From Candidatus Liptonbacteria bacterium (GTDB taxonomy: Bacteria > Patescibacteriota > Minisyncoccia > UBA6257 > 2-01-FULL-56-20), in NCBI GenBank assembly GCA_023244895.1, contig JAHFLL010000001.1, positions 178,476 through 242,475 on the forward strand: a DNA stretch of 64,000 nt. The letters are read 5' to 3'. Made by a program: the position numbers and the translations under genes. Within the stretch, counting starts at the first letter, position 1. Each line of letters opens with the position of its first letter. Of this stretch, positions 3,888-47,221 are shown piece after piece. The notes under the pieces were generated by a model. That model saw only the letters and a program-made list of their open reading frames with translations, had not been told where the DNA came from and searched no databases.

Positions 3888-4019
3888 AGCGACACGAATG
3901 CTACGAATTGCACACGAATTATCCGAAAATGATTTGGGGCATTCGGATGCCATTCGGATCGTTCGGGTTGCTTCCTTTTATTCGGGTCATTCGGATGTAA
4001 TTAGGGTCGTTCGGGTTGC
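3888..4019. repeat. ORF-less MITE-like derivative(s) of the 1773-2223 element
   Basis: agcgacacgaatg at the left end and cattcggatgtaattagggtcgtt at the right end. Multiple attcggat/cgttcgggttgc copies. Confidence 0.5.
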
Positions 4020-4041
4020 TATATATTAGAATTTATTCCAA

Positions 4042-5793
4042 ATGGATTTTTTTAGAAGATTAAAAACCAACTTGAAGATAAGTCGTCATGGCTGGCGCCA
4101 CCTCTTGCCCCATCCGGTTTTTTTGATAGCTTTCCTCATTCTAGCCGTAGTCGTGATCTGGCAGGTAGGTGTTATAACCGAGTTCATATATACCGGGCTC
4201 CAGGTTAAGCCTGCGAGAACCACGCCCACTGAGCCATTAGGGGGCGGCAAGGGGCAATCCGCAACGGAACAACCTCCCGAAGAGCCGAAAACTTTTTGGC
4301 AAAAGATCGGTATTTTTTCTGCCCCAAAAGAAAGTAGCGTGCCAACCGTTTCGGAGGACAGTCCCGGTCCGAACAGATTGCAGTTTTCATTCACCGAACT
4401 TTTTTCCGGTAAGGGTTGGAAAAACGAGTCCCAGTCTAATGTTTATCAGGACTTTTTAACCACCTCCATTTCCGCTCCGCCTGCGTATAGTTGGCAGAAA
4501 ATATCGGTTGATCCGCCCAGCGACGGTTCCGAAATAGTGGCCGCGAAAAGTAATGGCAAAAGAGCCGTGCTTCTAACTTCCGCGGGCAATATTTATTCTT
4601 TTGACTTTGCCGAGAAACTCTCCGCGCAATTAGGCCTTATTACTCCGCCCGCGGGAACAAATCGGGGATTCTTGGATTTTGACGCGGAAGCTGGTAAATG
4701 GGTGGCTGTTCTTTTGGGCAATAATGCCGAATATTTCGCTATTTTGGAAGAAGGGGGTGGGCAATTTAAAAAGTTGGCTGAATTCACTCGTCCGCTTCCG
4801 GGCGGAACGGGCGTAGCCGATCCGGGTATTGCTTGTCGGAACGGAAACTGCCTTTGGCTTTATGGATCCGAATTTTTGACTTTTTCTGATAACTCTCGCC
4901 CTAACCCCAAAAAGGAAGATGTTCTATCAAATTGGTTTAAAGACAAGAGCGTGAAGTCCGTGTCTGTGGCTAAAGCCTTGGGCGGTTGGCTTGTTTCCAA
5001 GACTCATCCGGGCGAGGAGGTTAAGTATGAAACAGATATATATTTATGGGATGGAGAGCTATCGCTTGCGGGCGAGAAGGTTTTCTCTTCCAACTATCCT
5101 GGTTTAGTCAGGTTCGGATATGATCCAAACACAAAGAAACTTCTTGGCATATATGTGGCTTATATCGGGCAAGCGTTTGAATTCAACCTACCCGACAAAT
5201 TTACCTTAGTAAAACCCAAAAACTATTCCAGATTTTTCAACGCTCGCATCTTGGGCGGGGGAGCAGAGGGGAGTATTGAAAGCTTCCCGGATATATTTGG
5301 GCAAGATGGCGCTTGGTGGATAGGCTCAACGCCCGAATCTCCCTCTCCCCGTTTTGTGAAAATATCACCGAGCGGGGGAGCGATTAGTCTGACGCAAGAA
5401 CTTGCCCTGGGCGCCCGCCAGTTATTTTTACTGCCTGGATTTGAGGCGCGAGTAATGTACGCCATCTTAGTTAAAAACGGCATAGTGGAAACGTATCGCC
5501 TAAACGATCGTGGCTACGAACAGAAAGATAAATATATCTGGGAGTCCTCTCGCATTAATAGCGGCGCGTTACCTATAAAGTTCGGACGCATAACCAATGC
5601 GGTTGGCGGGGGAGATATCAGATATTATTTATCTAATAACGGGGGAATCTCTTGGCTGGAGGCCAAGTCAAACGAGTTTGTAAAATTTTCATCGGACACC
5701 AGCGACTTCCGCTGGAAGGCGGAGCTCTCACCCTCTCCCGACCAATATTCCTCGCCCTGGCTCAACATGATTGGGGTAGAGTACTACCAGTAG
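4042..5793 (+). CDS. Hypothetical membrane-anchored protein (N-terminal TM; BNR-like SxxGGxSW motif near the C-terminus)
   Basis: 583-aa ORF. TM helix at residues 25-45. No confident family assignment. Confidence 0.5.
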   Translation: MDFFRRLKTNLKISRHGWRHLLPHPVFLIAFLILAVVVIWQVGVITEFIYTGLQVKPARTTPTEPLGGGKGQSATEQPPEEPKTFWQKIGIFSAPKESSVPTVSEDSPGPNRLQFSFTELFSGKGWKNESQSNVYQDFLTTSISAPPAYSWQKISVDPPSDGSEIVAAKSNGKRAVLLTSAGNIYSFDFAEKLSAQLGLITPPAGTNRGFLDFDAEAGKWVAVLLGNNAEYFAILEEGGGQFKKLAEFTRPLPGGTGVADPGIACRNGNCLWLYGSEFLTFSDNSRPNPKKEDVLSNWFKDKSVKSVSVAKALGGWLVSKTHPGEEVKYETDIYLWDGELSLAGEKVFSSNYPGLVRFGYDPNTKKLLGIYVAYIGQAFEFNLPDKFTLVKPKNYSRFFNARILGGGAEGSIESFPDIFGQDGAWWIGSTPESPSPRFVKISPSGGAISLTQELALGARQLFLLPGFEARVMYAILVKNGIVETYRLNDRGYEQKDKYIWESSRINSGALPIKFGRITNAVGGGDIRYYLSNNGGISWLEAKSNEFVKFSSDTSDFRWKAELSPSPDQYSSPWLNMIGVEYYQ

Positions 5794-6045
5794 TTGCGTA
5801 ACAACTACTGGAAATCCCAATGTCCAATTCCAAATGAGGAATGTTGGCAAGAGTGGGCCATTTGGCACTGGATATTTGGACTTTGGATTTCGCCTGTTGT
5901 TCGTCATTTGATATTTGAGCTTTGACATTGCCCTAGCTGACTTGTGCACATCTTTCCAGCCATTGATTTGTTATAATTATACAACTGGATTACGTCAAAC
6001 AAACGGGTCGGTTTTGGGTGAGGGCAATATGAATAATTTATTAAG

Positions 6046-8106
6046 ATGACTAAAAAAATAATATTCTCGGTTTTCATCGTCGGGTCGGTTCTCGGTCTTG
6101 CTCTGATCGTTTCCGCCGCCACCCGAGATATTGTTTTTACGCCCCAAGCCGCGGATCCGTATACCTGCAATGCCTCTACGACCGGGGCAATCTATTTTAA
6201 AAATGACAACAAGATTTATTCTTGCAATGGTTCCGCCTGGGCGCAGGTAGGTGGTGCGGCAGGGGGCGGTTCCGTCTCTACCTCTTCTGCTCTCTCCGCT
6301 TATTATTTTCCGTATTGGTCTAACGCAACGGGCGGTCTTATGGGGACGTCTACTATTTTCTACTCGTCCTCCACGGGCAATATCGGTATTGGCGGGGTAG
6401 TCACTCCTCAGAATAAATTGGATGTAACTTTAGGTACCAACAGCTTCGTCACCTTTGGCAACACGGTTAATACTAATGGAAGTTTCAGCGGCATTCATTT
6501 TGGCTACAAAGAAGACGGCAATGCCAACTATCGCAAAGGGGCATTGGTTTTTGAAACTCTTGGAGACAGCTCTGCTAGGGGTAAAGTGCATATTCTAAAC
6601 GATGGGGGTGCGGATGCTTCTTCGGCGACTCTCGCAGATGCTCGTCTCACGGTTGACTACAACGGTAACGTGGGTATCGGCACCGTCTATCCCTCCTCAA
6701 CTTTACACGTGGTTGGTTCGGCTAAATTTTCCGGTACCGTAGGGGTGGCTACTCCAGTTTTGGCCGGTGACGCCGCAACTAGATCTTATGTGGACACGGT
6801 CTTAGGCGGAGGCACGCTTGTAATCGAAAATCCTACCGGTGGCGACCCGCGCACGGTGTGGTATGGAGACGCCGGTACTATTACCGCCGGTATAAGATTT
6901 AGTACTGGCCGAGCTGGCACTATAACTAAGCTACGCGTCTTGGGGGGCCCCGTAACTTATACTATGAAGCTTTGGGACTATAACACCCAGACAGTCTTGG
7001 CCAGTGGTACCGTTACTGGAATAAACAACACTACCTGGGCAGAAGTCGCAGTGAACGTGTCTACCACTGTAAGCGGGCAGTACGTTGTGACTTATACGGA
7101 ATCAGGCTATGGCATGTATTATGGCGACGCCTCTTGTCCTAATAACACCTTAAGGGGAAGCATCACTGTTATTGCTTGTGGATTCGTAGCGGCCGCCGGC
7201 TTCCCGACTACATGGAATTACAGCCTCTCCGCGGCAGATGTTACGTTTTCCTATAGCGCCGTTACTGCCAGTCAGTGGAACACAACCTCCACCTCCATCT
7301 ACTACAACGTCGGCAACGTTGGCATTGGAACGGCGAGTCCGGGCTCAACTCTGGATGTTTTAGGCACTGGCAATTTCTCCGGGACGGTTACGGTTGCTAC
7401 TCCCACCGTATCTAGTCATGCCGCCACTATGGGGTATGTTAATACTGCGGTATCGTCCACGATTCCAACAGGTATGATAGCTTTCTTTGCTTCTGCCTGT
7501 CCGGCCAATTGGACGGAATACACCGCGCTAAGGGGCAGGGTGATAGTAGGTACACCAAGCGGAGGCACCAATGCCGGCACGGTGGGGACGGCGCTTACTA
7601 ATCTTGCGACCAGAACCATAACTGACGTACCGGCTCATACTCACGCAGTGGATCCGCCCGCTACCGCATCCGGCAACCAGAGTGCAGACCATACCCACAC
7701 CTTTACTACCGGTGGTGTGAGTGTTGGTCATACTCATTCTGTAAACCCCCCCAGTACTTCCGTCAGTATCACAGATCCAGGTCATACGCACACAGTTCCG
7801 AACAGCTACGGTTATGGAGGTAGTAGCGCTTCGGTTAATAATGCTGGTGGGCAATATGATTTAATAAAGTTTTATGGTAGCTCTGTTGCTTCTGCAACTA
7901 CGGGCATAACTGCTTCTGTTGATATTGCAGCTGTTACCTCGGGCGCGCAGAGCGTGGACCACACCCACTCTGGTACTACCGCTGGGATGAGCGTTAGCCA
8001 CACCCACACAACGGATATAGGATCATTTACTTCCGGTTCGGCAGGCTCCGCTTCGGTGGATGTGACTATGCCCTACATTCAGCTTACTGCCTGCCAGAAG
8101 AGCTAG
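6046..8106 (+). CDS. Secreted/anchored tail-fibre-like protein with a phage tail-collar domain and a His-Thr-His repeat region
   Basis: Signal/TM at the N-terminus. NIGIGGV...KLDV and ATRSYVDTV fibre motifs. IPTGMIAFFASACPANWTEYTALRGRVIVGT...PAHTHAV matches the tail-collar (Collar) domain consensus. Six HTH-type motifs follow (HTHA, HTHT, GHTHS, GHTHT, DHTHS, SHTHT). Confidence 0.7.
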   Translation: MTKKIIFSVFIVGSVLGLALIVSAATRDIVFTPQAADPYTCNASTTGAIYFKNDNKIYSCNGSAWAQVGGAAGGGSVSTSSALSAYYFPYWSNATGGLMGTSTIFYSSSTGNIGIGGVVTPQNKLDVTLGTNSFVTFGNTVNTNGSFSGIHFGYKEDGNANYRKGALVFETLGDSSARGKVHILNDGGADASSATLADARLTVDYNGNVGIGTVYPSSTLHVVGSAKFSGTVGVATPVLAGDAATRSYVDTVLGGGTLVIENPTGGDPRTVWYGDAGTITAGIRFSTGRAGTITKLRVLGGPVTYTMKLWDYNTQTVLASGTVTGINNTTWAEVAVNVSTTVSGQYVVTYTESGYGMYYGDASCPNNTLRGSITVIACGFVAAAGFPTTWNYSLSAADVTFSYSAVTASQWNTTSTSIYYNVGNVGIGTASPGSTLDVLGTGNFSGTVTVATPTVSSHAATMGYVNTAVSSTIPTGMIAFFASACPANWTEYTALRGRVIVGTPSGGTNAGTVGTALTNLATRTITDVPAHTHAVDPPATASGNQSADHTHTFTTGGVSVGHTHSVNPPSTSVSITDPGHTHTVPNSYGYGGSSASVNNAGGQYDLIKFYGSSVASATTGITASVDIAAVTSGAQSVDHTHSGTTAGMSVSHTHTTDIGSFTSGSAGSASVDVTMPYIQLTACQKS

Positions 8107-8158
8107 TGCGCGTTTTGCTCTGACGGTTTTTATCACAAATCAATATGAGCGCAAATAT

Positions 8159-8854
8159 ATGCGAATAGGTTTTAGTGTAAAAAGATTAGGTACTAAGATT
8201 ACCGCTCGCAAGCGCATCATTAAGATAGGGCTTGCGTTTTTGGTTGTCGCGCTTCTTATTTCCGGCGCGGTATACTCTTATATCTTCGCGCGGAAAATGA
8301 TAAGTGATGTCTATTATCGTTTGGGACAGATATCTCAGGGACTTGGAAATAACCCAGACTCACTGTCTTTGATAGAAAAATCATACGAATATAATAGTTC
8401 TGATCCCAGAGTTGTGTCTGCTATGGTGATTGGTCATATGAACATAGGGGACTACTCTTCGGCGAAGGATTTATTAGAGAATAAACTGAAAAATTTAGAC
8501 GAAGAAGGCTATCTGTATCTAACCGCGCTTCTTAAGCACAGGGAAAGAAACTATCAAGAAGCGGAGATTATCTTAAGAGGTTTAGTAGACAAGTATCCCG
8601 CTAAAGTTTTCTATTACGACGCACTGGGCTCCATGTATCTGGATATAAAAGATTATGAATCCGCGAAATCAATTTTTGAGAGAGGCATTGCCATCAATCC
8701 CAACGTTTCTATTTTACACGATGGCTTAGGTGTGGCGTATAACGCGCTTGGCAAGGCAGACCTTGCGCGGGATGAATACGCGAAAGCTTTGGAACTTGAC
8801 CCTACTAATACCGGTGCCCGCCGCAATCTAGAATTATTAGACGCAAGAAGATAA
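8159..8854 (+). CDS. TPR-repeat protein with N-terminal TM anchor
   Basis: Tetratricopeptide-like repeats (YYDALGSMYLDIKDYESAKSIFERGIAINP...AYNALGKADLARDEYAKALELDP). Confidence 0.65.
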   Translation: MRIGFSVKRLGTKITARKRIIKIGLAFLVVALLISGAVYSYIFARKMISDVYYRLGQISQGLGNNPDSLSLIEKSYEYNSSDPRVVSAMVIGHMNIGDYSSAKDLLENKLKNLDEEGYLYLTALLKHRERNYQEAEIILRGLVDKYPAKVFYYDALGSMYLDIKDYESAKSIFERGIAINPNVSILHDGLGVAYNALGKADLARDEYAKALELDPTNTGARRNLELLDARR

Positions 8855-8861
8855 GTGCTCT

Positions 8862-10169
8862 ATGAAGAAAGCAGTAAAATCGATTAAGCGCAAAGACCTG
8901 AATTACCGCAGAATTTTCTTGGCGTCCTTGATTGCGCTCGCCGTAGTTATCATCTCGGTTGCGATACTCGCGAGTTACTACGCGAGGGCATTTATCGGTC
9001 CCGGCCAGCCCAGCGGGTCCGGAGCGGGGGCTATCGGAGTGGACTCCGCGGATAATATCAGTGTTGGTTCTTCTACCACGCGCGCCAATACTAAAATGCT
9101 CATTATCTCGTCTAGCACGGGCAGTTCCGCTTGGGCTTTGGGGGTGTATCAGCCGGATGGAACTACGCCCATCTTTCTCGTGAGAGATGACAAAAAAGTG
9201 GCGATTGGAACAAGTATCGGTTCCGCCGCGCTTACGGTGGCGGGAGACATCTCCGCTACAGGCAACATTTCCGGAACTTATACCGGAGCGGTCAGTTCTA
9301 CTAATATCCGAGCGGGAAGTTTCGGGACGGGCGTAGGAGGAGGCAACTTCAGTTTCCCGGCCAGCTTGGCAGTCAGCACGTCTTCCCCAGCCTATAACTT
9401 GGACGTATGGGGTACGGGTCGCTTTATTAACAACCTTGCCGTGGGAACGCCGATTGGCAATGGAGACGCCACGCCGAAATCTTATGTGGATGGGCTGGTC
9501 TACTGGTATGCGGGCAATGGATATCTGTATCCAGCTTCCACGACCATGAATATCGCCATCGGAACATCAACAACCCCATCTTATAAATTAGACGTGTCCG
9601 GCTCGGGGCGTTTTACAGGCAGTTTGATCGCGAGCGGGGGCATAAATCTAAACAATCAAAATATTACCGGGGTAAACAAACTTACCGTGACCACTATTGA
9701 TCCGATTTATTTGATTGATGGGCGCAAGTATGCCACTTATGTCTCGGACACAATTGGCTTAAAAATGGAGGTGTACGGAAAGGCTAAACTGCTGCGCAGT
9801 AGTGACAAAACTCAAATGTCAAAGAACAAAAAAATTGGGATTGGTAATTTAGATTTAGACATTACCGGAACCGACCACCAATATATAATCGATTTTAAAT
9901 CAGTCCCGGTTGGCTCCGACTTGTGGTTGTTTTGGCAGACCATTAAAGAAGGGAGAGATATGCAGGACATTGTAGTTTCTCTTGCGCCCGAAGGTGCTCC
10001 GGCGCGGGTTTGGTACGAGTTTCTTCCCGCCGATAGGCAATTAGTATTTCACTCCGACCGAGAAGTGACTATTTCTTATCATCTTGTAGCCCCGCGCCAC
10101 GACTCGGATAGCTGGCGGAATATTTACGAATCTGATGAACCGGGCGTACCGTTATTGATAAAAAGATAA
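8862..10169 (+). CDS. Type-II membrane-anchored tail-fibre-like protein, paralog of the 1-1773 protein
   Basis: N-terminal TM (FLASLIALAVVIISVAILA). NIAIGTSTTPSYKLDV and PKSYVDGL motifs. C-terminal MSKNKKIGIGNLDLDITGT...VPVGSDLW block shared with ORF1. Confidence 0.7.
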   Translation: MKKAVKSIKRKDLNYRRIFLASLIALAVVIISVAILASYYARAFIGPGQPSGSGAGAIGVDSADNISVGSSTTRANTKMLIISSSTGSSAWALGVYQPDGTTPIFLVRDDKKVAIGTSIGSAALTVAGDISATGNISGTYTGAVSSTNIRAGSFGTGVGGGNFSFPASLAVSTSSPAYNLDVWGTGRFINNLAVGTPIGNGDATPKSYVDGLVYWYAGNGYLYPASTTMNIAIGTSTTPSYKLDVSGSGRFTGSLIASGGINLNNQNITGVNKLTVTTIDPIYLIDGRKYATYVSDTIGLKMEVYGKAKLLRSSDKTQMSKNKKIGIGNLDLDITGTDHQYIIDFKSVPVGSDLWLFWQTIKEGRDMQDIVVSLAPEGAPARVWYEFLPADRQLVFHSDREVTISYHLVAPRHDSDSWRNIYESDEPGVPLLIKR

Positions 10170-27954: not shown

Positions 27955-29412
27955 ATGTCTAATAAGTTTTATATAACTACTACTTTGCCGTATGTGAATG
28001 CGGCGCCTCATATTGGATTTGCCTTGGAAATAGTCCAGGCGGATGTTTTGGCCCGTTATGCCAGTTTGCGTGGCAGGGAGGTGGTTTTTAACACCGGTAC
28101 GGATGAGCATGGGCTAAAGATTTATCGCAAGGCCATAGAAGAAGGCAAAGACCCGCAGGCTTACGTGGATGAGTACGCCGCCAAATTTGAGCGTTTAAAA
28201 AATGCGCTAAACGTTAGCTATACTAATTTTGTCCGTACCACCGACCCGCACCACATAAAAGCAGCTCAAGATTTTTGGACCAGGTGTGAGAAGGCGGGGG
28301 ATATATATAAGAAGTTCTATAGCGTTAAATATTGCGTCGGCTGCGAGTTGGAAAAGACCGATTCCGAACTAGTGGAAGGCAGGTGCCCAGTCCATCCTAA
28401 TCTGGAGCTGGAGGCGATTGAAGAGGAAAACTATTTCTTCAGGTTCTCTAAGTATCAACAACCGCTTCTCCATTTATATTCCGAACATCCCGATTTTGTG
28501 GTGCCGGATTATCGTTTAACCGAAATAAAGAATTTTGTTTCCGGCGGACTGCAGGATTTCAGCATTTCCCGACTCAAAGAGAAAATGCCTTGGGGTATAC
28601 CCGTGCCGGGAGACGATAAGCACGTTATGTACGTTTGGTTTGATGCGCTCATAAATTACATTTCCACTCTGGGTTGGCCGGAGAATCAGAAAAAATTTGA
28701 AGAATTCTGGGGAACCGCGGGGCATCCGAATGCGCTCCAGATAGCCGGTAAAGATAATCTGCGCCAGCAGTCCGCCATTTGGCAGGCGATGTTGCTTTCG
28801 GCCGGAGTTCCGACTTCCCGTCAAGTATTGATTCACGGATTTATCACAAGCGAGGGAGAGAAGATGTCAAAGAGCCTAGGCAACGTCGTGGATCCGTTTG
28901 TTATCGTTGACAAATACGGCACGGACGCGCTGCGTTATTGGCTGACCCGGGAGATGCCGACTTTTAATGATGGCGATTTTACGATTGAAAGATTTGAAGA
29001 AAGTTACAACGCCAGTTTAGCGAACGGCCTGGGTAATTTGGTCAGTAGGATAATGAAGATGGCGAGCGCGAATGGAGTTGGGTTGGATTGGGAAAAAGCG
29101 GACGAGGGATTAAATTGGGAGACGGAGGGCTATGCGGAGTATCTGGAAACGGCTCAGATTCAGCAGGCTGCGGAGATAATTTGGCGGGAGGCGCGCAAGG
29201 CAGATCAGTATATTCAGGAGAAGGAGCCATTTAAGGTCATAAAGACCGACCCAGAAAAGGCTAAAAAGGACATCCTTATCCTACTCGGAGAATTATGGAC
29301 TATTGGCCGACTACTCGAACCATTTTTGCCCGAAACGAGTGCGCGCATTATAAACGCCATAAAGGATAATCATGAAATCAGCCAGCCGCTATTTCCCAGG
29401 ATTAGTAGCTAG
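27955..29412 (+). CDS. metG: Methionine--tRNA ligase (short form)
   Basis: [15 protein letters not shown]-type motif, KMSKSLGN, zinc knuckle CVGCELEK...CPVH. Confidence 0.9.
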
Positions 29413-33850: not shown

Positions 33851-34519
33851 ATGAAAGCCGTCATTTTGGCCGCGGGGCTTGGAACTAGGATGGGTAAGCT
33901 TACGGAGGACACTCCCAAGCCGCTACTTAAGGTTGGCGGGAAAACTCTTCTGGAGCACAAATTTCATTATCTGCCGGACGAAGTAGATGAGGTAATTGTT
34001 GTGGTTGGATATTTGAAAGAAAAGATAAAGGAGCTTTTGGGTAATGAGCATGCCGGCCGCAAGATAACCTATGTAGAGCAAAAAGAACTACTTGGCACCG
34101 GACACGCATTGTCTTTATGTAAGGGTTTTTTGCAGGGAAAATTCTTAGTTCTAAACGGAGACGATTTATATGCTAAAGAAGATCTTTTAGAGATGTTGAA
34201 GCACGAATTGTCCCTGATGGTCTGGGAGATGCCCGCAGATGAGCCAGGACGCAAGGTGGCGGATGTAAAAATAGCGCCAAGCGGCGCGCTCTTAGATATT
34301 GTGGAAGGACAACCGGCTAAGAAGGGGACGCTTTTCAATACGGGCGCGTATGTGCTGGACGAAAGGTATTTCGATTACCCGCTCCAGCCGGCGGCCCCAG
34401 GCAGAAATGAATTCGGGCTCCCGCAGACCATGCTTCAAATGCTAAAAGACGGCCACGAGATAAGCATCGTGCGAGCCACCTGGTGGAAGCCGATTACCTG
34501 CCCAGAGGACCTCGCTTAA
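33851..34519 (+). CDS. Sugar-phosphate nucleotidyltransferase
   Basis: MKAVILAAGLGTRMG...PKPLL N-terminal NTP-transferase signature. Confidence 0.7.
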   Translation: MKAVILAAGLGTRMGKLTEDTPKPLLKVGGKTLLEHKFHYLPDEVDEVIVVVGYLKEKIKELLGNEHAGRKITYVEQKELLGTGHALSLCKGFLQGKFLVLNGDDLYAKEDLLEMLKHELSLMVWEMPADEPGRKVADVKIAPSGALLDIVEGQPAKKGTLFNTGAYVLDERYFDYPLQPAAPGRNEFGLPQTMLQMLKDGHEISIVRATWWKPITCPEDLA

Positions 34520-35072
34520 CCTTGGACAATTTGTAGTGTTTTATAATTTTCTCCGCTGTTTTCTTGGGGCTTAGCTTGGTGTTGTCTATGACCAGGCTTT
34601 CTCCAAATGGAATGACGCTGACAAAGTCCTTTTCTCTCATAATAGATTTAAGCGTGTTTATTTTTTTAAGTTTACGATACGCCTGCCGAGAAGGATTCTT
34701 AACGCGTTTATATAGCTCCGCATCTTTACAGTGGAGTTTAATAAAAAGCACTTCTGCGCCGTGTTTTCTGGCCCCACTAAGAAGCTTGCGAACAATTGGG
34801 TCGTCTTCTTTTGCGTAATACACAAATGTAAATATGCAATTAACTTTTTCTCTAGCCGCGATAGTTAGGAGTTCTTGTCTATATTTTCTGACTAAATGGT
34901 GAAAAATTTCCTGATCTCTATTAAAAAGAGAGTGAATCAAGTCTACTGTCAGATGGTTGTGAAACAGCTTAAATCCGGTCAGCTTAGCCAGCTCCTTTGC
35001 GACCGTAAGCTTGCCGACGCCGGGCGGGCCATATATGAAAACTAATTTAGGATTTGCCTTGGATGTTCGCAC
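34494..35072 (-). CDS. P-loop NTPase / AAA-type kinase-like ATP-binding protein
   Basis: Walker A FIYGPPGVGKLTVAKELA. 26-nt convergent overlap with the preceding gene. Confidence 0.55.
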   Translation of the reverse strand: MRTSKANPKLVFIYGPPGVGKLTVAKELAKLTGFKLFHNHLTVDLIHSLFNRDQEIFHHLVRKYRQELLTIAAREKVNCIFTFVYYAKEDDPIVRKLLSGARKHGAEVLFIKLHCKDAELYKRVKNPSRQAYRKLKKINTLKSIMREKDFVSVIPFGESLVIDNTKLSPKKTAEKIIKHYKLSKVKRGPLGR

Positions 35073-35109: not shown

Positions 35110-38100
35110 ATGAAAAAATACGACTTTAAAAAAATTGAAGCCAAGTGGCAGAAGGTCTGGCAGGAGAAGGGTGTTTACGAACCTGCCTTAAAGTCCTCCA
35201 AGGGCAAAAATCCTCCCTTCTATAACTTGATGATGTTTCCGTATCCTTCCGCGGAGGGTCTGCATGTAGGCAATATGTATGCCTTCACGGGTACGGATAT
35301 CTACGGACGTTATAAGCGTATGCAGGGCAACGATGTTTTTGAGCCGATTGGCCTAGACGGCTTCGGAATTCACTCCGAGAACTATGCCATGAAAATCGGG
35401 GCTCACCCCATGAAGCAGGCTAAAGTATCGGAGAAAAGGTTCTATAAGCAGCTGCAGGCAATAGGAAACGGGTTTGCCTGGAACGAGCGCCTGGAAACAT
35501 ATGATCCGGAATATTACCGCTGGACGCAGTGGATTTTCGCGCAGATGTTTAAGGCGGGGTTGGCTTATCGCAAGAAGCAGGCTGTGAACTGGTGTCCATC
35601 CTGCATGACGGTTTTGTCCGACGAGCAGGCCGAGGGCGGAAAGTGCGAACGTTGCAACTCGGTAGTTATTAAAAAAGATTTAGAGCAGTGGTTTTTTAAA
35701 ATTACGGAATACGCGGAAAGACTTTTGCAGAATCTGGACAAGTTGGATTGGTCCGAAAAGGTAAAAATAGCGCAGAAGAATTGGATAGGGAAGTCGGAGG
35801 GGGCGGAGCTGGAATTTGGAATTAAGAATTATGAATTAGGAATCAAAAATGCCCTGGTTATTCATGGTGTGAGTGGGCATAAGAGGGAAAATTGGTTTCC
35901 GTGGCTGAAAGATATTTTAGAGAAAGACGGTTGGCATGTTAGCGTGCCCACTCTACCGACCCCCGATCATCCCAAAATAGAAGAATGGAATATGGTCCTA
36001 AAGAAAGAGTCTACATCCGCCTCTGTTTTAATCGGCCACAGTTTGGGAGCTCCAGCCGCTTTAAACCTTATTCAGACCAGCAATAAAAAGATAGACAGAT
36101 TAATCTTGGTAGCTCCGGTCAATCCTAAACAGGATTGGAGATATTTAAAGTCGGTCTATCCTCAAGCTGATTGGGATGCGGTCAAAAACTTCGCGGATAT
36201 TAAGTTCGATTGGGAAAAAATTACAAAATTAGTCAGACAGGTTGTGGTCTATTATTCCGACAATGACCCATATGTTTCTGCTAAATCGGTGGAGTTCTAT
36301 AAGCAGCATCTACCGAACGCTATTTTTAGGTTCTTGCCCGGCAAGGGCCATTTTAATGAGCGTTATGGGATAACCGAATTTCCGGAAATCCTGGAAGCGG
36401 TTAACCCCAAGGTAAAAGTTTTTACAACCAGGCCGGATACGCTTTTTGGCGCGACTTATGTCGTCTTGGCGCCGGAACACCCATTGATACAGAATCTAGA
36501 AGGTGGAATTAAGAATGTAGTAGAAGTTAAGAACTATATTAAGAAATCTAAGGCTAAGACTGATGAGGAGAGAATAGAGAACAAAGAGAAAACTGGCGTA
36601 GAACTAAGGGGCGTTAAAGCTATAAATCCTGCGACCCAAGGAGAGATATCCATTTGGGTAGCAGATTATGTTTTGTCTTCCTACGGCACAGGTGCAATTA
36701 TGGCCGTCCCGGCACACGATGAGCGCGACCACGAGTTTGCTAGCAAGTACAAACTTCCAATCGTAGAGGTGGTTGATTCTCAAGATAACTCCGACGGCAC
36801 CCTTTGGCTTGGAGGAGGACGCTTAATAAATTCTGGAAGATTTAACGGAGTGGATTCAGAAGAGGCCAAGTGGAAAATAACGGCAGAGGTTGGTGGCAAG
36901 AAAAAGATACAATATCGTCTGCGAGACTGGCTGATTTCGCGTCAGCGCTATTGGGGTCCGCCCATCCCGATGATTCATTGCGAAGGTTGCGAAAAAGCCG
37001 GGAAGGGGGAGCGCAAAGAAATGCCGGGCTGGTACGCGGTGCCCGACAAAGACCTGCCGGTGAAGCTGCCGTTCGTAAAAGATTTTCGTCCGCAAGGCTC
37101 TGGCAGTTCGCCACTCGCGGCATCTAAGGCATTCCGCGATGTGCGCTGTCCGGTCTGTAAAAATAAAGCCAAGCGGGAGACAGACGTTTCGGACACTTTT
37201 TTGGACTCGGCCTGGTACTATTTGCGCTATCCATCCTTAAGCTCCAAGACTGCCAAGGCTAAAGCCTGGGACCCGGAGATAACCAAGAGCTGGTGTCCGG
37301 TTGATATGTATATCGGCGGGGCGGAGCACTCCGTGTTGCACCTGCTATACGTACGCTTTTTGGCCCTAGCCTTACACGACCTGAAACTAGTCAATTTTGG
37401 AGACTCTAAGGCCCCTAAAGGCGAGCCATTCCCCAAATTCCGCGCCCACGGCCTTCTTATTAAGGAGGGAGCTAAAATGTCCAAGTCTAAGGGGAATGTG
37501 GTCAATCCGGACGAATATATCAAGAATTTTGGAGCGGACACCCTGCGCATGTATTTGATGTTTTTAGCTCCCTTTGAACAGGGTGGAGACTTCCGGGACG
37601 CGGGCGTTATGGGTATCAGCCGCTTTTTGGAGAGGGTGTATAAATTTAGTCAAAGAATTAGCGACCCGAATACTACAAATTACATCCGAATTATCCGAAA
37701 AGAGAGAAAGAATTCGGAGCATTCGGATGTATTCGTGGATTTGGATCGCATACTGCATCAGACCATTAAGAAGGTTTCGGATGATCTGGAGAGTTTGAGC
37801 TACAACACGGCCATAAGCGCCATGATGATATTGCTAAATAAGTTCGAGGAAAAGGCAGAGTCAGTCTCGCTACCAAATTGGATAGACTTCTTGAAACTGC
37901 TTGCTCCATTTGCTCCACATCTTTCCGAGGAACTGTTCCAGTCAGCCAAAAAACATAATTCTCAATTCATAATTCGTAATTCAATCCATCTATCCGATTG
38001 GCCCCAATATAACCCAGAGCTTGCCCGGGAATCCAATTTTACTTTGATAGTTCAAATTAACGGCAAGGTGCGTGCGAGCATTGAGGCTCCGATTGGGATA

Positions 38101-38217
38101 TCAGAGAAGAACGCTCTGGCGCTTGCCCTCCGAAATGAGCGCGTGAAAGAACTTGTGTCCGGCGATCCGAAGAGGGTGATATTTATTCCTAATCGTCTGA
38201 TTAACCTGGTAATCTAA
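35110..38217 (+). CDS. leuS: Leucine--tRNA ligase carrying two insertions (alpha/beta-hydrolase domain; in-frame palindromic repeat)
   Basis: HVGNMYAFTGTDIY (HIGH-type), TTRPDTLFGATYVVLAPEHP and AVPAHDERD editing-domain motifs, KMSKSKGN. About 1035 aa versus about 800-860 typical. Confidence 0.9.
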   Translation: MKKYDFKKIEAKWQKVWQEKGVYEPALKSSKGKNPPFYNLMMFPYPSAEGLHVGNMYAFTGTDIYGRYKRMQGNDVFEPIGLDGFGIHSENYAMKIGAHPMKQAKVSEKRFYKQLQAIGNGFAWNERLETYDPEYYRWTQWIFAQMFKAGLAYRKKQAVNWCPSCMTVLSDEQAEGGKCERCNSVVIKKDLEQWFFKITEYAERLLQNLDKLDWSEKVKIAQKNWIGKSEGAELEFGIKNYELGIKNALVIHGVSGHKRENWFPWLKDILEKDGWHVSVPTLPTPDHPKIEEWNMVLKKESTSASVLIGHSLGAPAALNLIQTSNKKIDRLILVAPVNPKQDWRYLKSVYPQADWDAVKNFADIKFDWEKITKLVRQVVVYYSDNDPYVSAKSVEFYKQHLPNAIFRFLPGKGHFNERYGITEFPEILEAVNPKVKVFTTRPDTLFGATYVVLAPEHPLIQNLEGGIKNVVEVKNYIKKSKAKTDEERIENKEKTGVELRGVKAINPATQGEISIWVADYVLSSYGTGAIMAVPAHDERDHEFASKYKLPIVEVVDSQDNSDGTLWLGGGRLINSGRFNGVDSEEAKWKITAEVGGKKKIQYRLRDWLISRQRYWGPPIPMIHCEGCEKAGKGERKEMPGWYAVPDKDLPVKLPFVKDFRPQGSGSSPLAASKAFRDVRCPVCKNKAKRETDVSDTFLDSAWYYLRYPSLSSKTAKAKAWDPEITKSWCPVDMYIGGAEHSVLHLLYVRFLALALHDLKLVNFGDSKAPKGEPFPKFRAHGLLIKEGAKMSKSKGNVVNPDEYIKNFGADTLRMYLMFLAPFEQGGDFRDAGVMGISRFLERVYKFSQRISDPNTTNYIRIIRKERKNSEHSDVFVDLDRILHQTIKKVSDDLESLSYNTAISAMMILLNKFEEKAESVSLPNWIDFLKLLAPFAPHLSEELFQSAKKHNSQFIIRNSIHLSDWPQYNPELARESNFTLIVQINGKVRASIEAPIGISEKNALALALRNERVKELVSGDPKRVIFIPNRLINLVI
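35818..36414 (+). other. Inserted YdeN/RBBP9-type serine hydrolase domain within leuS (residues about 237-435)
   Basis: LVIHGVSGHKRENWFPW...LIGHSLGAPAAL (GxSxG nucleophile elbow)...YYSDNDPYV...GKGHFN (Asp/His). Inserted between the conserved ...SEGAELEF and VKVFTTRPDT LeuS blocks, which are normally only a few residues apart. Confidence 0.65.
37660..37751. repeat. MITE-like palindromic element (ORF-less derivative of the 1773-2223 element) inserted in-frame in leuS
   Basis: agcgacccgaat...catccgaat...attcggagcattcggatgtattcgtggatttggatcgc matches both ends of the 1773-2223 element. Translated as SDPNTTNYIRIIRKERKNSEHSDVFVD in the LeuS frame. Confidence 0.6.
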
Positions 38218-44047: not shown

Positions 44048-47000
44048 CTAGCGTACGAAGTTCCTACCCGGCTTAGCGCGGAGAGTGTCTGGTTCTTTCT
44101 CTTCCGAACGCAAGGCATAGATTATCTTCTCGTAGGGAGTAAGAATTGGTCCGGCCAGCTTAATCACATGGAACTTGAAGGCTGCGAAATAGAACGCTAC
44201 CGAAACCAAAAGTCCCAAACTTAGGACCCACGGGACCGGATTATCCGGACCAGTTACGATATCGGCCGCGCCTAAGACCTGCCCGCGATTCTTTATTTGA
44301 ATGGTCGCGTAAGCATTCTGTACGCCTGAGTTCATTGTAGCATTTACCTGATTGGTAATAAACTTCTGGGCGGAACCCGCGAATATTACCGCGCGGAAAC
44401 GGATAATCTTTTCTTCGTTAACATTTAGCATGCCCAAAGAAAGTCCGCCGCCGGTTATGCCATCCGTCACATTAATGCCGTTCACGCTGGTGCTCTGGGG
44501 CACATAGTAGAGTTCTTGGGGCAGAATATCTTGCACGTTAACCGAGCCGGAAGTGTTGTCTATGTTGCGCACCCTAATTTCAAACTCCAGAACATCTAAG
44601 CCTTGTCCTTCGATGGAGTTGGAGTAGGTGGATTGATTTAGATTGCGATTTAAGACGGACTTAGTAACTTGTAAGTTGCGCGCCGTGCCTCCGCCGTAGT
44701 TATTAACCGTGATGGTCTCGGTATCGGTTGCCTGTCCATATTGATTAGTACAGGTGATGGTGTAAGTAGTAGTGAAGGTCGGATAAACTATTGAAGATCC
44801 ATTCAAGTTTTGATTACCGCTCCAGTTATTTCCGCCAGCTGTGGCGTAACAGGTCGTCGCGTTCTGGGAGTTCCAATAGAGAGTGCTCTGTTGACCGCTG
44901 TTTACGTTAGTAGGGGAGGCGGTCAAGTTTACGGTTGGCAGATTGTAGTTATCATTTACGAAAACCGTGGTCTGCGCGCTAACATTCTGTCCGTTCTGCC
45001 CGGTGCAATTAATGTAGTAGGTTGTGGTCTGGTTGGGGTAGACGGTCTCGCCACCGGAAACATTTTTATTACCGGACCAATATCCGCCGCTCGCGTAACA
45101 AGAGGTGGTATTCTGGCTCGTCCAATTTAAAACGCTGGACTGTCCACGGCTGACTACGCTTGGGTTGGAAGTTAGTGTTACCGAAGGATAGTTACCGTTA
45201 TTACCCACCGTAACCGTGGTCTGCGCGACTGCGCTCTGCCCGGTGCCGTTGTAGCAAGTTATGGAATAAGTGGTGGTGCTGCCCGGGTAAACGACTTCAG
45301 AGCCGGATAGATTTTTATTACCGGACCAGCCGCTAGAGGCGATACAGTAAGTCGCGTTTTGAGAGCTCCAGGTTAAAACCGAAGATTGCCCCTGGTTGAT
45401 GTAGCTAGGGTTGGAATTTATGGTTACGGTAGGAGCTTGAACTTGCTGAACATTTATAACCACGCTGTCGCTCGCATAACCTGCCGCACCCGTACAGGAA
45501 ACAAAATAGGTAGCATTGTAGCTCAGATTCGGCGTAGTCTGACTGCCGCTCGTGCCCGTCCAACCGCCCGGGGACACATTACAAGAAGTGGCGCCAGCAG
45601 AGGTCCAAGAAATAACAGCAGTGGAATTATTGGGAATTGTTATCGGTCCATCCGAACCATTCGCCTTAATGTCGGCTGTAATCTGGGGAGGATTACCAAC
45701 CGTAACCGTGACGCTATCCTGAGCGCTACCTCCGCTTTGCCCAATACAATATACAGAATAAGTTTGCTGGTAAGTTAAGTTTCCGCTGGACTGCGAACCG
45801 CTTGTGCCCGTCCAGCCGCTCGGGGATACGCTACAAGAAGCAGCGTTAGTAGAAGTCCAAGAAATAGTAGCAGAGGTGTTGTAGGGTATGTTTAGAGTAC
45901 TATCTTGTCCATTCGCCTTGATGTCTGCGGTAACAGTAGCTCCCGCTCCCACATTCACAGTTACCGAATCAGAAGCGGAACCACCCGCTCCGCTACAGTT
46001 AACAGTATAAGTTTGAGTAGCGGTTAAGTTTCCGCTGGACTGCGAACCGCTTGTGCCCGTCCAGCCGCCCGGAGTGACCGTGCAAGAGGTAGCATTAGAA
46101 GAAGTCCAAGAAATGGTAGCCGCAGTGTTATTGGGAATTGTGATCGGTCCATCCGAGCCATTCGCCTTAATGTCGGCGGAGATGGTCTGATTAATGCCGC
46201 AATTTTGCGCGTTGACTAATACGGTCACATCATTGGATGCGACTTGGGCATGATTCTTCTGACGATAAGTGTAGTAAGTGTCGCCCAAAGAAACATTAGT
46301 GTCGGTGTAGCTAAAAACATTAAAAGGTTCCGAATCCTGCATTATGACGCTAAAGTTACCCCCACCCACTTTTCTTAAGAGGGTGTTGGCTTGCTGGTTA
46401 GCTACCTGGTTCCAAGAGAGATTGACGCGGGGCGCTCCGTTTATGTTGGAGCAGTATCCGGTCAGGTTGCTGGGCGGGGGTAGCGTAACCGCCCCCACAT
46501 TCACAGTTACCGAATCAGATGCGGAACCGCCTGCTCCGCTACAGTTAACAGTATAAGTTTGGGTAGCGGTTAAGTTTCCGCTGGACTGCGAACCACTTGT
46601 GCCCGTCCAGCCGCCCGGAGTGACCGTGCAAGAGGTAGCGTTAGAAGAAGTCCAAGAAATGGTAGCCGCAGTGTTATTGGGAATTGTGATCGGTCCATCC
46701 GAACCATTCGCCTTGATGTCAGCGGAGATGGTGGGAGGGGGGATGATTACGTTGTCGCCATATATTTTAAGAACAGCCAAGCCGTGGACCGGGCCGATTG
46801 GATTGCCAGTTTCATCCACCGCATTTTCGGCAGTTACCACCAAATAGAATCCGTTACCGGCCGAGAAGTTGCTAACGTTTATATTTCTCGTGTCATTCTT
46901 AATACTGGGAGGATTAACACCTACAAAATAAACCTGGTTATTATTGATAGTTACCTGCCCGCCATCGTCCAGTTCGCTTTCTAAAACCGCGCGGGTAATA

Positions 47001-47221
47001 GTGGTATTGCTTGGCACGGTACAATATGCCTGAGCGGTTACAGTTAGGCCACCCCCGACAGACTGAGTTTCGGCCGTGCAGGTTACGAGCAGGCTCTCCG
47101 CGCTAGCTTGATTTGTAATAGAAAATGCCGAAACCAGCGCCAAAGAAAAAATAGCGCCGAAGATTAAGGTTTTGTTGATAAAGTTAGTATTCATTAGTTT
47201 TGTTAATAGATTAAGGCACAT
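44048..47221 (-). CDS. Giant cell-surface protein: about 5 Ig-like repeats (NATSC...PGGWTGTSGSQ), DUF11-like domain, C-terminal TM anchor
   Basis: 1057 aa. Signal/TM at the N-terminus. Three nearly identical about 85-aa repeats. DUF11-like LEFEIRVRNIDNTSGSVNVQDILP. C-terminal IVTGPDNPVPW plus TM plus charged tail. First gene of the adhesin-CAP-sortase operon. Confidence 0.75.
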   Translation of the reverse strand: MCLNLLTKLMNTNFINKTLIFGAIFSLALVSAFSITNQASAESLLVTCTAETQSVGGGLTVTAQAYCTVPSNTTITRAVLESELDDGGQVTINNNQVYFVGVNPPSIKNDTRNINVSNFSAGNGFYLVVTAENAVDETGNPIGPVHGLAVLKIYGDNVIIPPPTISADIKANGSDGPITIPNNTAATISWTSSNATSCTVTPGGWTGTSGSQSSGNLTATQTYTVNCSGAGGSASDSVTVNVGAVTLPPPSNLTGYCSNINGAPRVNLSWNQVANQQANTLLRKVGGGNFSVIMQDSEPFNVFSYTDTNVSLGDTYYTYRQKNHAQVASNDVTVLVNAQNCGINQTISADIKANGSDGPITIPNNTAATISWTSSNATSCTVTPGGWTGTSGSQSSGNLTATQTYTVNCSGAGGSASDSVTVNVGAGATVTADIKANGQDSTLNIPYNTSATISWTSTNAASCSVSPSGWTGTSGSQSSGNLTYQQTYSVYCIGQSGGSAQDSVTVTVGNPPQITADIKANGSDGPITIPNNSTAVISWTSAGATSCNVSPGGWTGTSGSQTTPNLSYNATYFVSCTGAAGYASDSVVINVQQVQAPTVTINSNPSYINQGQSSVLTWSSQNATYCIASSGWSGNKNLSGSEVVYPGSTTTYSITCYNGTGQSAVAQTTVTVGNNGNYPSVTLTSNPSVVSRGQSSVLNWTSQNTTSCYASGGYWSGNKNVSGGETVYPNQTTTYYINCTGQNGQNVSAQTTVFVNDNYNLPTVNLTASPTNVNSGQQSTLYWNSQNATTCYATAGGNNWSGNQNLNGSSIVYPTFTTTYTITCTNQYGQATDTETITVNNYGGGTARNLQVTKSVLNRNLNQSTYSNSIEGQGLDVLEFEIRVRNIDNTSGSVNVQDILPQELYYVPQSTSVNGINVTDGITGGGLSLGMLNVNEEKIIRFRAVIFAGSAQKFITNQVNATMNSGVQNAYATIQIKNRGQVLGAADIVTGPDNPVPWVLSLGLLVSVAFYFAAFKFHVIKLAGPILTPYEKIIYALRSEEKEPDTLRAKPGRNFVR

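What the first reader, a model, noticed from the sequence alone, without database searches (positions are those of the whole stretch)
35818..36414. Serine alpha/beta-hydrolase (YdeN/RBBP9-like) domain inserted into LeuS immediately before the CP1 editing domain
About 200 aa containing a GHSLG nucleophile elbow, a downstream Asp (YYSDNDPYV) and His (GKGHFN) are inserted between the LeuS blocks ...[11 protein letters not shown] and [13 protein letters not shown]. These blocks are contiguous in canonical LeuS. The canonical editing domain motifs (TTRPDT, AVPAHDERD) are still present. So this enzyme would carry two hydrolytic modules. The reading frame is continuous, so it is not an assembly break, and intein hallmarks are absent. 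A short GIKN peptide (ggaattaagaat) recurs at both insertion junctions and again 90 bp downstream. A fused esterase could provide extra proofreading or moonlighting activity; such an architecture is not a described LeuS feature.
Basis: partly seen in the sequence, partly recalled or inferred. Interest (0 to 1): 0.75.

Follow-up and report, generated by a model that had tools for sequence, protein, structure and literature searches.

The report
Serine hydrolase nested inside leucyl-tRNA synthetase
The leucyl-tRNA synthetase of this small-genome (Patescibacteria) bacterium carries a complete, apparently active serine hydrolase inserted at the base of its proofreading domain; the same kind of hydrolase has joined this enzyme several separate times in related bacteria, and no paper I could find describes it.

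Summary

It is not a one-off or an assembly error. 62 of the 120 closest LeuRS homologues, all Patescibacteria/Paceibacteria where named, carry such a domain. The Ser-Asp-His triad is kept (Ser in 63/63) and the CP1 editing motifs are invariant. The domain is as conserved as CP1 itself.

At least two hydrolase clades occupy the same site. Others lie in a CP1 loop, at the CP1 exit or in the ZN-2 module. The five closest free-standing homologues are all encoded directly upstream of leuS. Many relatives also carry a NUDIX domain in CP1.

The "GIKN" repeats are the ancestral hairpin plus a background-level 12-mer, not an insertion scar.

Function is inferred. The most likely role is an auxiliary hydrolase of aminoacyl esters (or aminoacyl-adenylates), working alongside CP1. 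I found no paper or curated family model for this architecture.

The parts
35110..38217 (+). leuS: complete 1035-aa bacterial-type leucyl-tRNA synthetase with a nested hydrolase domain
   Evidence: ORF. TIGR00396 860 bits, cutoff 548. AF2 model pLDDT 87.9; Foldseek TM 0.80-0.84 to T. thermophilus and E. coli LeuRS.
35263..35274 (+). HIGH-motif position, here HVGN (aa 52-55)
   Evidence: The second His is N, G or A in all 120 homologues.
35803..35856 (+). Retained ancestral CP1-entry beta-hairpin ([14 protein letters not shown]) followed by the upstream junction
   Evidence: Insert-free relatives read EF(G/R)[17 protein letters not shown]. In the model, strand 228-240 is followed by the first hydrolase strand, 247-251.
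35845..36405 (+). RBBP9/YdeN-family alpha/beta serine hydrolase domain (aa 246-432), insertion site A
35890..35904 (+). NWFPW motif after strand beta1. W, F and W are invariant in the family; I infer that this is the oxyanion-hole region.
   Evidence: Invariant W26/F27/W29 of alignment A2; position.
36040..36042 (+). Catalytic nucleophile Ser311 (GHSLG)
   Evidence: Ser in 63/63 LeuRS-embedded and 120/120 free homologues. It aligns to the GHS nucleophile motif of RBBP9 and YdeN; Ser75 is the catalytic serine of RBBP9 (PMC8866121).
36169..36183 (+). Lid motif DWDAV specific to the query's hydrolase clade (clade I). The second Asp of the motif aligns with RBBP9 Glu108, which anchors the substrate alpha-amine.
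   Evidence: D-W invariant in 9/9 clade-I sequences. Alignment to RBBP9; role of Glu108 from PMC8866121.
36265..36267 (+). Catalytic Asp386 (SDNDP, second D)
   Evidence: D in 120/120 free homologues; D in 55 and E in 5 of 63 embedded domains.
36349..36351 (+). Catalytic His414 (GKGHF)
   Evidence: H in 120/120 free homologues and 58/63 embedded domains; the other 5 were not aligned at this column.
36403..36888 (+). CP1 editing domain (aa 432-593), with TTRPDT (36424-36441) and AHDERD (36712-36729) intact
   Evidence: PF13603 199 bits. T439, T440, R441, D443, T444, H536, D537, R539 and D540 are invariant in 120 homologues.
36775..36804 (+). CP1 surface loop (aa 556-565). Empty in the query; this is insertion site B in relatives, which carry NUDIX or a second hydrolase here.
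   Evidence: Insert mapping. Pfam on P0126, P0183 and P0193. pLDDT below 50 at 562-565.
36979..37158 (+). ZN-2 module (CEGC 624-627 ... CPVC 680-683). The loop at aa 629-636 is insertion site C in relatives.
37474..37488 (+). KMSKS motif (aa 789-793)

Best explanation
Shown: the gene encodes a complete LeuRS. An RBBP9/YdeN-type Ser-Asp-His hydrolase is nested in the beta-hairpin at the N-terminal crossover into the CP1 editing domain. The domain is under purifying selection as strong as that on CP1. It belongs to a hydrolase lineage that in Patescibacteria is tied to LeuRS: it is either encoded directly upstream of leuS or inserted into LeuRS. The known insertion sites are the CP1 entry, a CP1 loop, the CP1 exit and the ZN-2 module. 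At least two distinct hydrolase clades occupy the CP1-entry site.

Inferred: the domain is a second, cis-acting hydrolytic module that works next to CP1 on the aminoacyl group handled by LeuRS. Ser311 would attack the carbonyl of an alpha-aminoacyl ester (mischarged aminoacyl-tRNA-Leu) or of an aminoacyl-adenylate. This would form an aminoacyl-enzyme that water then resolves. That would widen or back up the proofreading done by CP1. The free-standing copies would do the same in trans.
For: Identity and fold.

Triad conserved in 63 LeuRS-embedded domains.

Purifying selection. Against the 77%-identical orthologue, dN is 0.097 for the hydrolase, 0.207 for CP1 and 0.06 for the N-terminal catalytic part, with dS saturated. 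Regional identities tell the same story.

Not an artefact. 62 of the 120 nearest LeuRS homologues from independent data sets carry the domain. L010 and L012 encode colinear full-length ORFs.

Repeated recruitment. Clade II is monophyletic in 97/100 bootstraps, while 'all site-A inserts' is monophyletic in 0/100. The LeuRS core is 63-81% identical between the two clades, but their hydrolases are only about 30% identical. Other sites: B, C and D.

Gene neighbourhood. All five closest free homologues lie 1-600 nt upstream of leuS.

Position. Every insertion is internal and lies in or beside CP1 or ZN-2. No terminal fusion to a complete LeuRS was seen, although the free gene lies directly upstream, where loss of a stop codon would give one. 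This argues for a geometric requirement near the tRNA acceptor end (inference).

Chemistry. RBBP9, the one characterised family member, forms acyl-enzymes with single hydrophobic amino acids (Leu/Ile, Phe, Tyr, Trp). [quoted passage not shown]

Pattern. Having both nested and free-standing forms is what is known for editing modules: ProRS INS with YbaK/ProXp, and AlaRS with AlaX (established knowledge).
Against: No activity or substrate was tested. I could not read model coordinates, so I do not know whether Ser311 can reach the tRNA 3' end or faces CP1.

CP1 looks fully competent, so a second deacylase is not obviously needed.

No Ser-His-Asp alpha/beta-hydrolase is known as an aaRS editing domain.

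The same hydrolase family is also fused to peptidases (S9, S33, S51), a penicillin-binding protein, NUDIX and HD domains outside LeuRS. That fits a more general peptide or nucleotide scavenging role.

The residue aligned with the RBBP9 alpha-amine anchor is not strictly conserved.
Confidence: 0.45

Rival explanations
1. Amino-acid supply. The domain is an RBBP9-like aminopeptidase that clips N-terminal Leu or other hydrophobic residues from scavenged peptides and so feeds leucine to the synthetase. This would suit an organism that cannot make amino acids.
For: RBBP9 is an aminopeptidase for hydrophobic or aromatic N-termini. Members of the same hydrolase family are fused to S51, S9 and S33 peptidases. 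Patescibacteria are generally amino-acid auxotrophs (general knowledge).
Against: Free leucine diffuses, so fusion gives little benefit. The domain is always nested around CP1 or ZN-2, never simply fused to a terminus, although the free gene sits directly upstream. Among the top 150 representatives, LeuRS was the only aaRS with a nested copy.
Confidence: 0.15
2. Adenylate clearance or self-protection. The hydrolase, together with the NUDIX module found in relatives, destroys non-cognate aminoacyl-adenylates or natural leucyl-adenylate mimics that poison LeuRS (agrocin-84/TM84-like or sulfamoyl-adenosine-like compounds).
For: NUDIX and the hydrolase occur together in many LeuRS homologues and also outside LeuRS, as in the NUDIX-Ser_hydrolase-abhydrolase protein P0362. 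An HD phosphohydrolase lies next to the hydrolase-leuS pair in L003, and P0388 is a hydrolase-HD fusion. LeuRS is a known target of adenylate mimics, as in solved structures 3ZGZ and 5AH5.
Against: The query itself has no NUDIX domain. Aminoacyl-AMP is not a typical NUDIX substrate. No toxin or biosynthetic genes were noticed near leuS. This is entirely indirect.
Confidence: 0.15
3. Non-catalytic role. The domain serves as a structural spacer, tRNA-binding surface or protein-interaction module, and the hydrolase chemistry is irrelevant.
For: Clade-II inserts have diverged strongly in the lid and around the Asp. Some have Glu or other residues at the Asp position.
Against: The nucleophile Ser is invariant in 63/63 embedded domains. 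His is present wherever that column is aligned, and the GxSxG elbow is kept. dN is low.
Confidence: 0.05
4. Artefact or selfish element. The insert is an assembly chimera, a frameshifted pseudogene or an intein-like mobile insertion.
For: A 12-13 nt direct repeat lies at 35817 and 36504.
Against: The ORF is continuous. The same colinear architecture is found in dozens of independent assemblies. No Hint or intein Pfam hit. The junctions are K248-N249 and P435-K436, with no Cys/Ser/Thr +1 residue and no His-Asn. The repeat is at background frequency and does not bracket the domain.
Confidence: 0.01

Closest known systems
Canonical bacterial LeuRS with CP1 editing domain (T. thermophilus 2BTE/1OBC, E. 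coli 4AQ7/4ARC)
   Same: Same overall fold (TM 0.80-0.84). KMSKS, the Zn knuckles, and the CP1 T-rich and HDxRD editing motifs are all present.
   Different: None of the 50 best-matching solved LeuRS chains is longer than 876 residues, against 1035 here. The query has a 190-aa catalytic domain in the CP1-entry hairpin. Its HIGH motif reads HVGN.
YdeN (B. subtilis, 1UXO) and RBBP9 (human, 2QS9/9FCR), Pfam PF06821 Ser_hydrolase
   Different: Those are free-standing proteins. This one is nested in an aaRS and has a clade-specific lid motif (Q[DN]W..LK..DWxAVKxF). No substrate is known for any bacterial member.
Cis/trans aaRS editing module pairs (ProRS INS with YbaK/ProXp-ala; AlaRS editing domain with AlaX; archaeal ThrRS-ed)
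   Same: The same evolutionary pattern: a hydrolytic module is found either built into the synthetase or as a separate gene that works with it. Here the separate gene lies directly upstream of leuS.
   Different: The fold and chemistry are unrelated to any known editing domain. Deacylase activity is not demonstrated here.
IleRS with a fused N-acetyltransferase domain (NCBIfam NF040702 ileS_w_GNAT)
   Same: Another bacterial class Ia synthetase that has acquired a whole extra enzyme domain (the model is listed).
   Different: The added enzyme is different. That architecture has a curated family model; the LeuRS-hydrolase one has none.
Alpha/beta-hydrolases that cleave alpha-aminoacyl esters, for example human valacyclovir hydrolase BPHL (2OCG)

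Membership tests
Bacterial-type leucyl-tRNA synthetase (TIGR00396 leuS_bact) | Whole-protein score above the curated cutoff | tested here: met
   860 bits against a cutoff of 548, in two stretches around the insert.
Bacterial-type leucyl-tRNA synthetase (TIGR00396 leuS_bact) | Class I signature motifs HIGH and KMSKS | tested here: inconclusive
   KMSKS is present (aa 789-793). HIGH reads HVGN; the second His is absent in all 120 homologues, so this is a clade trait and not decay.
Bacterial-type leucyl-tRNA synthetase (TIGR00396 leuS_bact) | CP1 editing domain with the T-rich motif and catalytic Asp residues | tested here: met
   PF13603 199 bits. TTRPDT and HDERD are invariant across 120 homologues.
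Bacterial-type leucyl-tRNA synthetase (TIGR00396 leuS_bact) | LeuRS three-dimensional architecture | tested here: met
   The AF2 model (pLDDT 87.9) matches 2BTE, 4AQ7 and 5OMW with target-normalised TM 0.80-0.83.
RBBP9/YdeN serine hydrolases (Pfam PF06821) | Profile score above the gathering threshold over nearly the full model | tested here: met
   72-77 bits against 22; model positions 2-168 of 172.
RBBP9/YdeN serine hydrolases (Pfam PF06821) | Minimal alpha/beta-hydrolase fold closest to YdeN and RBBP9 | tested here: met
RBBP9/YdeN serine hydrolases (Pfam PF06821) | Ser-Asp-His triad with the GxSxG nucleophile elbow | tested here: met
   S311, D386 and H414. These positions are invariant in free homologues and conserved in embedded ones.
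RBBP9/YdeN serine hydrolases (Pfam PF06821) | Hydrolytic activity on aminoacyl amide or ester substrates | not testable with these tools
   Needs enzyme assays.
aaRS cis-editing domains (a functional class) | Hydrolyses mischarged aminoacyl-tRNA or non-cognate adenylate | not testable with these tools
   Needs deacylation and AMP-formation assays with wild type, S311A and D540A.
aaRS cis-editing domains (a functional class) | Active site within reach of the tRNA 3' end | tested here: inconclusive
   All insertion sites flank or lie within CP1 or ZN-2. Model coordinates could not be read, so no distance was measured.
aaRS cis-editing domains (a functional class) | Homologous free-standing (trans) forms genetically linked to the synthetase | tested here: met
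   The five closest free homologues are all directly upstream of leuS.
Inteins | Hint domain; Cys/Ser at the N-terminal junction; His-Asn plus Cys/Ser/Thr at the C-terminal junction | tested here: not met
   No Hint or intein Pfam hit. The junctions read ...LGIK|NALV... and ...EAVNP|KVKV....

The most novel reading that the evidence does not exclude
A Ser-His-Asp alpha/beta-hydrolase is a previously unrecognised kind of aaRS proofreading or deacylase module. It would be structurally unrelated to CP1, INS/YbaK, AlaX or DTD. Patescibacteria have recruited it to LeuRS several times independently, either as an operon partner or nested at four sites. It is often combined with a nested NUDIX domain, giving a synthetase with three or four hydrolytic sites. 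A variant of this reading is that it removes aminoacyl groups that reactive Leu-AMP has placed on lysines or other nucleophiles (a self-repair de-aminoacylase).
Probability: 0.3. Interest if true: 0.85.

Novelty: new variant of a known kind. Interest (0 to 1): 0.7.

Why it matters
LeuRS is one of the best-studied editing synthetases and a drug target. No known LeuRS carries a second, unrelated hydrolytic domain.

The evidence for a real functional coupling between an RBBP9/YdeN hydrolase and leucyl-tRNA synthesis is strong for comparative data:
- the domain has been inserted repeatedly and independently, always around CP1 or ZN-2;
- its free-standing relatives lie directly upstream of leuS;
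- its catalytic triad is conserved.

If the domain acts on aminoacyl-tRNA or adenylates, it would add a new fold to the small set of translational proofreading modules. It would also give the poorly understood bacterial YdeN family its first physiological context. And it would show how organisms with very small genomes add to, rather than strip down, a core translation enzyme. The proposal is directly testable with one recombinant protein and three point mutants.

Tried and rejected
1. GIKN repeats as an insertion scar or target-site duplication: rejected. Two copies are the two strands of the ancestral hairpin, which is present in insert-free LeuRS. The exact 12-mer pair is at background frequency and does not bracket the domain.

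2. Intein or assembly chimera: rejected.

3. Singleton fusion: this was suggested at first, because the search with the insert alone returned only free ~185-aa proteins and did not even return the query's own protein. The full-length search overturned it.

4. Single ancestral insertion: not supported by the hydrolase tree or by the mismatch between core and insert identity. The LeuRS core NJ tree is star-like and could not settle gains against losses.

5. dN/dS: dS is saturated against the closest available orthologue, so only dN could be compared between domains.

6. Geometry of Ser311 relative to the CP1 pocket and the tRNA path: not possible, because model coordinates are not exposed.

7. 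CP1 decay compensated by the hydrolase: rejected. The CP1 motifs are invariant with or without the insert.

8. Second leuS copy or free hydrolase in the window: none found. The rest of the genome could not be examined.

9. Eight literature searches found no description (one search failed on syntax; searches ran).
Full report
**What is there**

The window carries one uninterrupted ORF, 35110..38217 on the + strand, of 1035 codons. It is a bacterial-type leucyl-tRNA synthetase. TIGR00396 scores 860 bits against a cutoff of 548, with the match broken into two stretches around the insert, the larger covering residues 432-1035. Pfam finds the class I catalytic domain, the LeuRS editing domain (PF13603, residues 432-593) and the anticodon-binding domain. 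Between the first two it finds PF06821 Ser_hydrolase at 72-77 bits (gathering score 22), over residues 249-429.

GC content shows no discontinuity at the junctions.

**What the insert is**

In an alignment with 75 free-standing homologues, the invariant residues include the catalytic His-Ser pair of the nucleophile elbow, one Asp and one His. In the LeuRS these are S311, D386 and H414. The full-length model is also confident (pLDDT 87.9, pTM 0.79). It shows the long strand 228-240 followed by the first hydrolase strand (247-251), the last hydrolase helix (426-431), and then strand 434-439 running into TTRPDT. That model superposes on T. thermophilus and E. coli LeuRS with target-normalised TM 0.80-0.84. 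None of the 50 best-matching solved LeuRS chains is longer than 876 residues.

**The junctions and the GIKN repeats**

Insert-free relatives read, for example, '[31 protein letters not shown]' (P0226) or '...[20 protein letters not shown]' (P0212). The query reads '[13 protein letters not shown][hydrolase][13 protein letters not shown]'. So the two upstream GIKN peptides are simply the two strands of the ancestral CP1-entry hairpin, kept intact ahead of the insertion. The downstream junction supplies a new copy of the second strand.

The third GIKN (aa 466-469) lies 30 residues inside CP1. The exact 12-mer is found only at 35818 and 36505. Direct 12-mer repeats within 1 kb occur about 40 times in this window and three times within leuS. 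The repeat therefore says nothing about how the domain arrived. There is no Hint or intein match, and the junction residues are not intein-like.

**It is not a one-off**

A search with the insert alone returned only free ~185-aa hydrolases. It missed every LeuRS-embedded copy, including the query's own protein, which at first suggested a singleton.

The full-length search showed otherwise. The query protein itself is in public data on an 840-kb contig, and a 77%-identical orthologue exists. Of the 120 best LeuRS homologues, 62 contain the hydrolase. Those that carry names are Paceibacterota, Liptonbacteria, Wildermuthbacteria, Nealsonbacteria and Adlerbacteria.

Of the 63 hydrolase domains in those 62 proteins (one protein carries two), 59 lie at the query's site, site A. 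There the WIGKS-to-TTRPDT spacing is about 205-226 residues instead of about 30. A scan of one genome per species gave the same picture. The seven hits at 47% identity or more were all inside leuS, while all hits at 36% or less (Firmicutes and others) were free genes with no leuS within 5 kb. The orthologue's locus has the same gene order as the window: TatD, nucleotidyltransferase, leuS, then an HtrA-like protease on the opposite strand.

**Other insertion sites and other inserted domains**

Mapped onto the query numbering, relatives carry the same hydrolase family at three further places:
- Site B: the CP1 surface loop 556-564 (P0175, P0183, and a second copy in P0158).
- Site D: just before YRLRDW at the CP1 exit, at about residues 597-600 (L013-L016, where the domain order is N-terminal part, CP1, hydrolase, C-terminal part).
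- Site C: the ZN-2 module, right after the first CxxC, at about 629-636 (P0201, the second copy in L015, and many cluster representatives).

Some proteins have two copies (P0158, L015, P0253). A NUDIX domain (PF00293) occupies site B in about 35 of the 120 homologues, with or without the hydrolase; the query has none. In a full scan of 1.84 billion cluster representatives, 35 of the 150 best hydrolase matches were 300 aa or longer. About 19 of those were LeuRS or LeuRS fragments with an internal hydrolase. None was a simple N- or C-terminal fusion to a complete LeuRS.

**Conservation**

Across the 63 embedded domains:
- The nucleophile Ser is invariant, within a G/A/T-x-S-x-G elbow.
- The Asp position is D in 55 and E in 5.
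- The His is present in all 58 sequences that align at that column.

The CP1 residues T439, T440, R441, D443, T444, H536, D537, R539 and D540 are invariant in all 120 LeuRS, with or without inserts. The hydrolase therefore does not replace a decayed CP1.

Against its closest relatives, the hydrolase is as conserved as CP1: 82% against 71%, 58% against 66%, and 59% against 50% identity. Against the 77% orthologue, dN is 0.097 for the hydrolase, 0.207 for CP1 and 0.06 for the N-terminal catalytic part. Synonymous sites are saturated. This is strong purifying selection.

**More than one origin**

The embedded hydrolases fall into two groups. Clade II holds about 54 site-A inserts. Clade I holds the query, P0122, P0123, P0152 and P0170 (all site A), intermixed with free proteins P0001-P0004 and next to the site B and C inserts.

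In 100 bootstrap NJ trees, clade II was monophyletic 97 times and 'all site-A inserts' never. Mean identity of the query's group is 57% to the free P0001-4, 35% to generic free hydrolases and only 28% to clade II. Yet the LeuRS cores of clade-II proteins are 63-81% identical to the query. The same hairpin was therefore filled at least twice, or refilled by replacement. Caveats: these are distance trees only, rate acceleration in clade II cannot be excluded, and the LeuRS core tree is too star-like to count gains and losses.

**Gene neighbourhood of the free forms**

All four closest free homologues of the query's insert (54-56% identity) lie just upstream of leuS:
- L001: hydrolase 6001-6576, leuS 6578-9022.
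- L002: hydrolase 439-1029, leuS 1108-3525.
- L003: hydrolase 2671-3267, leuS from 3336.
- L004: hydrolase 851-1432, leuS from 2030.

The closest free homologue of a clade-II insert (P0400, 50% identity) is also 24 nt upstream of a leuS, one that carries NUDIX. More distant free members are not next to leuS. One Woesearchaeota member lies directly upstream of an archaeal-type ProRS in many contigs.

**How it most likely works**

The steps shown are these: a complete LeuRS; an intact, selected Ser-Asp-His hydrolase of the RBBP9/YdeN family at the CP1 crossover; repeated physical and genetic coupling of this hydrolase lineage to LeuRS; and placement always in or beside CP1 or ZN-2. From established LeuRS structures, that is the side of the enzyme that handles the tRNA acceptor end.

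The rest is inferred. RBBP9 is the one family member with a defined activity. [quoted passage not shown] An aminoacyl-tRNA is such an ester.

Two further points favour a proofreading-type role. First, the domain is always nested near CP1 and never fused to a terminus, although the free gene lies immediately upstream. That argues that position relative to the tRNA 3' end or the adenylate site matters. Second, the occurrence of both nested and free-standing forms mirrors known editing modules (INS with YbaK/ProXp, AlaRS with AlaX; established knowledge).

I therefore favour an auxiliary cis-acting hydrolase of aminoacyl esters or adenylates that extends or backs up CP1 proofreading, at about 0.45 confidence.

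**Rivals**

- An aminopeptidase that supplies leucine (about 0.15). This is supported by fusions of the same family to S51, S9 and S33 peptidases. The strictly internal, CP1-centred placement argues against it.
- Clearance of adenylates, or protection from leucyl-adenylate mimics, together with NUDIX or HD partners (about 0.15).
- A non-catalytic role (about 0.05), contradicted by triad conservation.
- An artefact or selfish element (about 0.01), refuted.

The remaining probability is for functions I have not thought of.

**Novelty**

Eight full-text searches combining LeuRS or aaRS with hydrolase, RBBP9/YdeN, NUDIX, Patescibacteria, CPR and domain architecture found no description. A 2024 survey of aaRS families and domains mentions no hydrolase or NUDIX module in LeuRS. 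NCBIfam has a dedicated model for IleRS with a GNAT domain but none for this architecture. Public records name these proteins 'class I tRNA ligase family protein', 'alpha/beta fold hydrolase' or 'leucyl-tRNA synthetase/predicted alpha/beta hydrolase family esterase'. So automatic annotation has seen the domain combination, but it appears to be uncharacterised. The literature library excludes most subscription journals, so a published description cannot be ruled out. I class it as a new variant of a known kind (an aaRS with an added catalytic module) and rate interest at 0.7.

Noticed in passing
Homologues P0126 (aa 562-666), P0193 (aa 376-500), L089 5533-8406; corresponds to window 36775-36804 (query aa 556-565): About 35 of the 120 closest LeuRS homologues carry a NUDIX domain (PF00293) inserted in a CP1 surface loop, with or without the hydrolase. 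The query has only a short, low-confidence loop at this position.
   Followed up: partly
L013-L016, L015 5700-6260, P0158, P0175, P0183, P0201, P0253: The same hydrolase family is inserted at three other LeuRS sites: a CP1 loop, the CP1 exit and the ZN-2 module after the first CxxC. It is sometimes present in two copies per protein.
   Followed up: partly
L007 4001-4555 / 4629-6173; L008 3300-3854 / 3928-5472: A free YdeN-like hydrolase of Woesearchaeota (P0006, 38% identical to the insert) lies directly upstream of an archaeal-type ProRS, in 14 or more similar contigs. This hints that the link between this hydrolase family and aaRS genes may extend beyond LeuRS.
   Followed up: no
window 35263-35274 (aa 52-55): The class I HIGH motif reads HVGN. 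The second histidine is replaced by N, G or A in all 120 closest LeuRS homologues, whereas the leuS genes next to free hydrolases in L003 and L004 read HVGH and HMGH.
   Followed up: no
P0287, P0362, P0276, P0296, P0314, P0388; L003 2076-2669: Outside LeuRS, the same hydrolase family is fused to a class A penicillin-binding protein, to NUDIX plus an S33-type hydrolase, to S9/S33 and S51 peptidases, and to an HD phosphohydrolase. An HD_3/YfbR-like gene also precedes the hydrolase-leuS pair in L003.
   Followed up: partly
window 44048-47221 (-): A 1057-aa ORF with many internal direct repeats spaced about 249 and 546 nt apart. It has no Pfam match, and Tandem Repeats Finder reported nothing.
   Followed up: partly
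window 34494-35072 (-): A 192-aa P-loop (AAA_18/AAA_33-like) ORF lies on the opposite strand between the nucleotidyltransferase gene and leuS. It is absent from the otherwise syntenic locus L088 of the 77% orthologue.
   Followed up: no
(tool behaviour): The word-indexed protein search with the 199-aa insert returned only free ~185-aa proteins. It missed every LeuRS-embedded copy, including the 100%-identical parent protein. A domain-only query can therefore wrongly suggest that a fusion is unique.
   Followed up: yes
window 27967-29001 (+): A second class I aaRS-like gene lies about 6 kb upstream, with weak tblastn similarity to the LeuRS catalytic core. It was not identified further.
   Followed up: no
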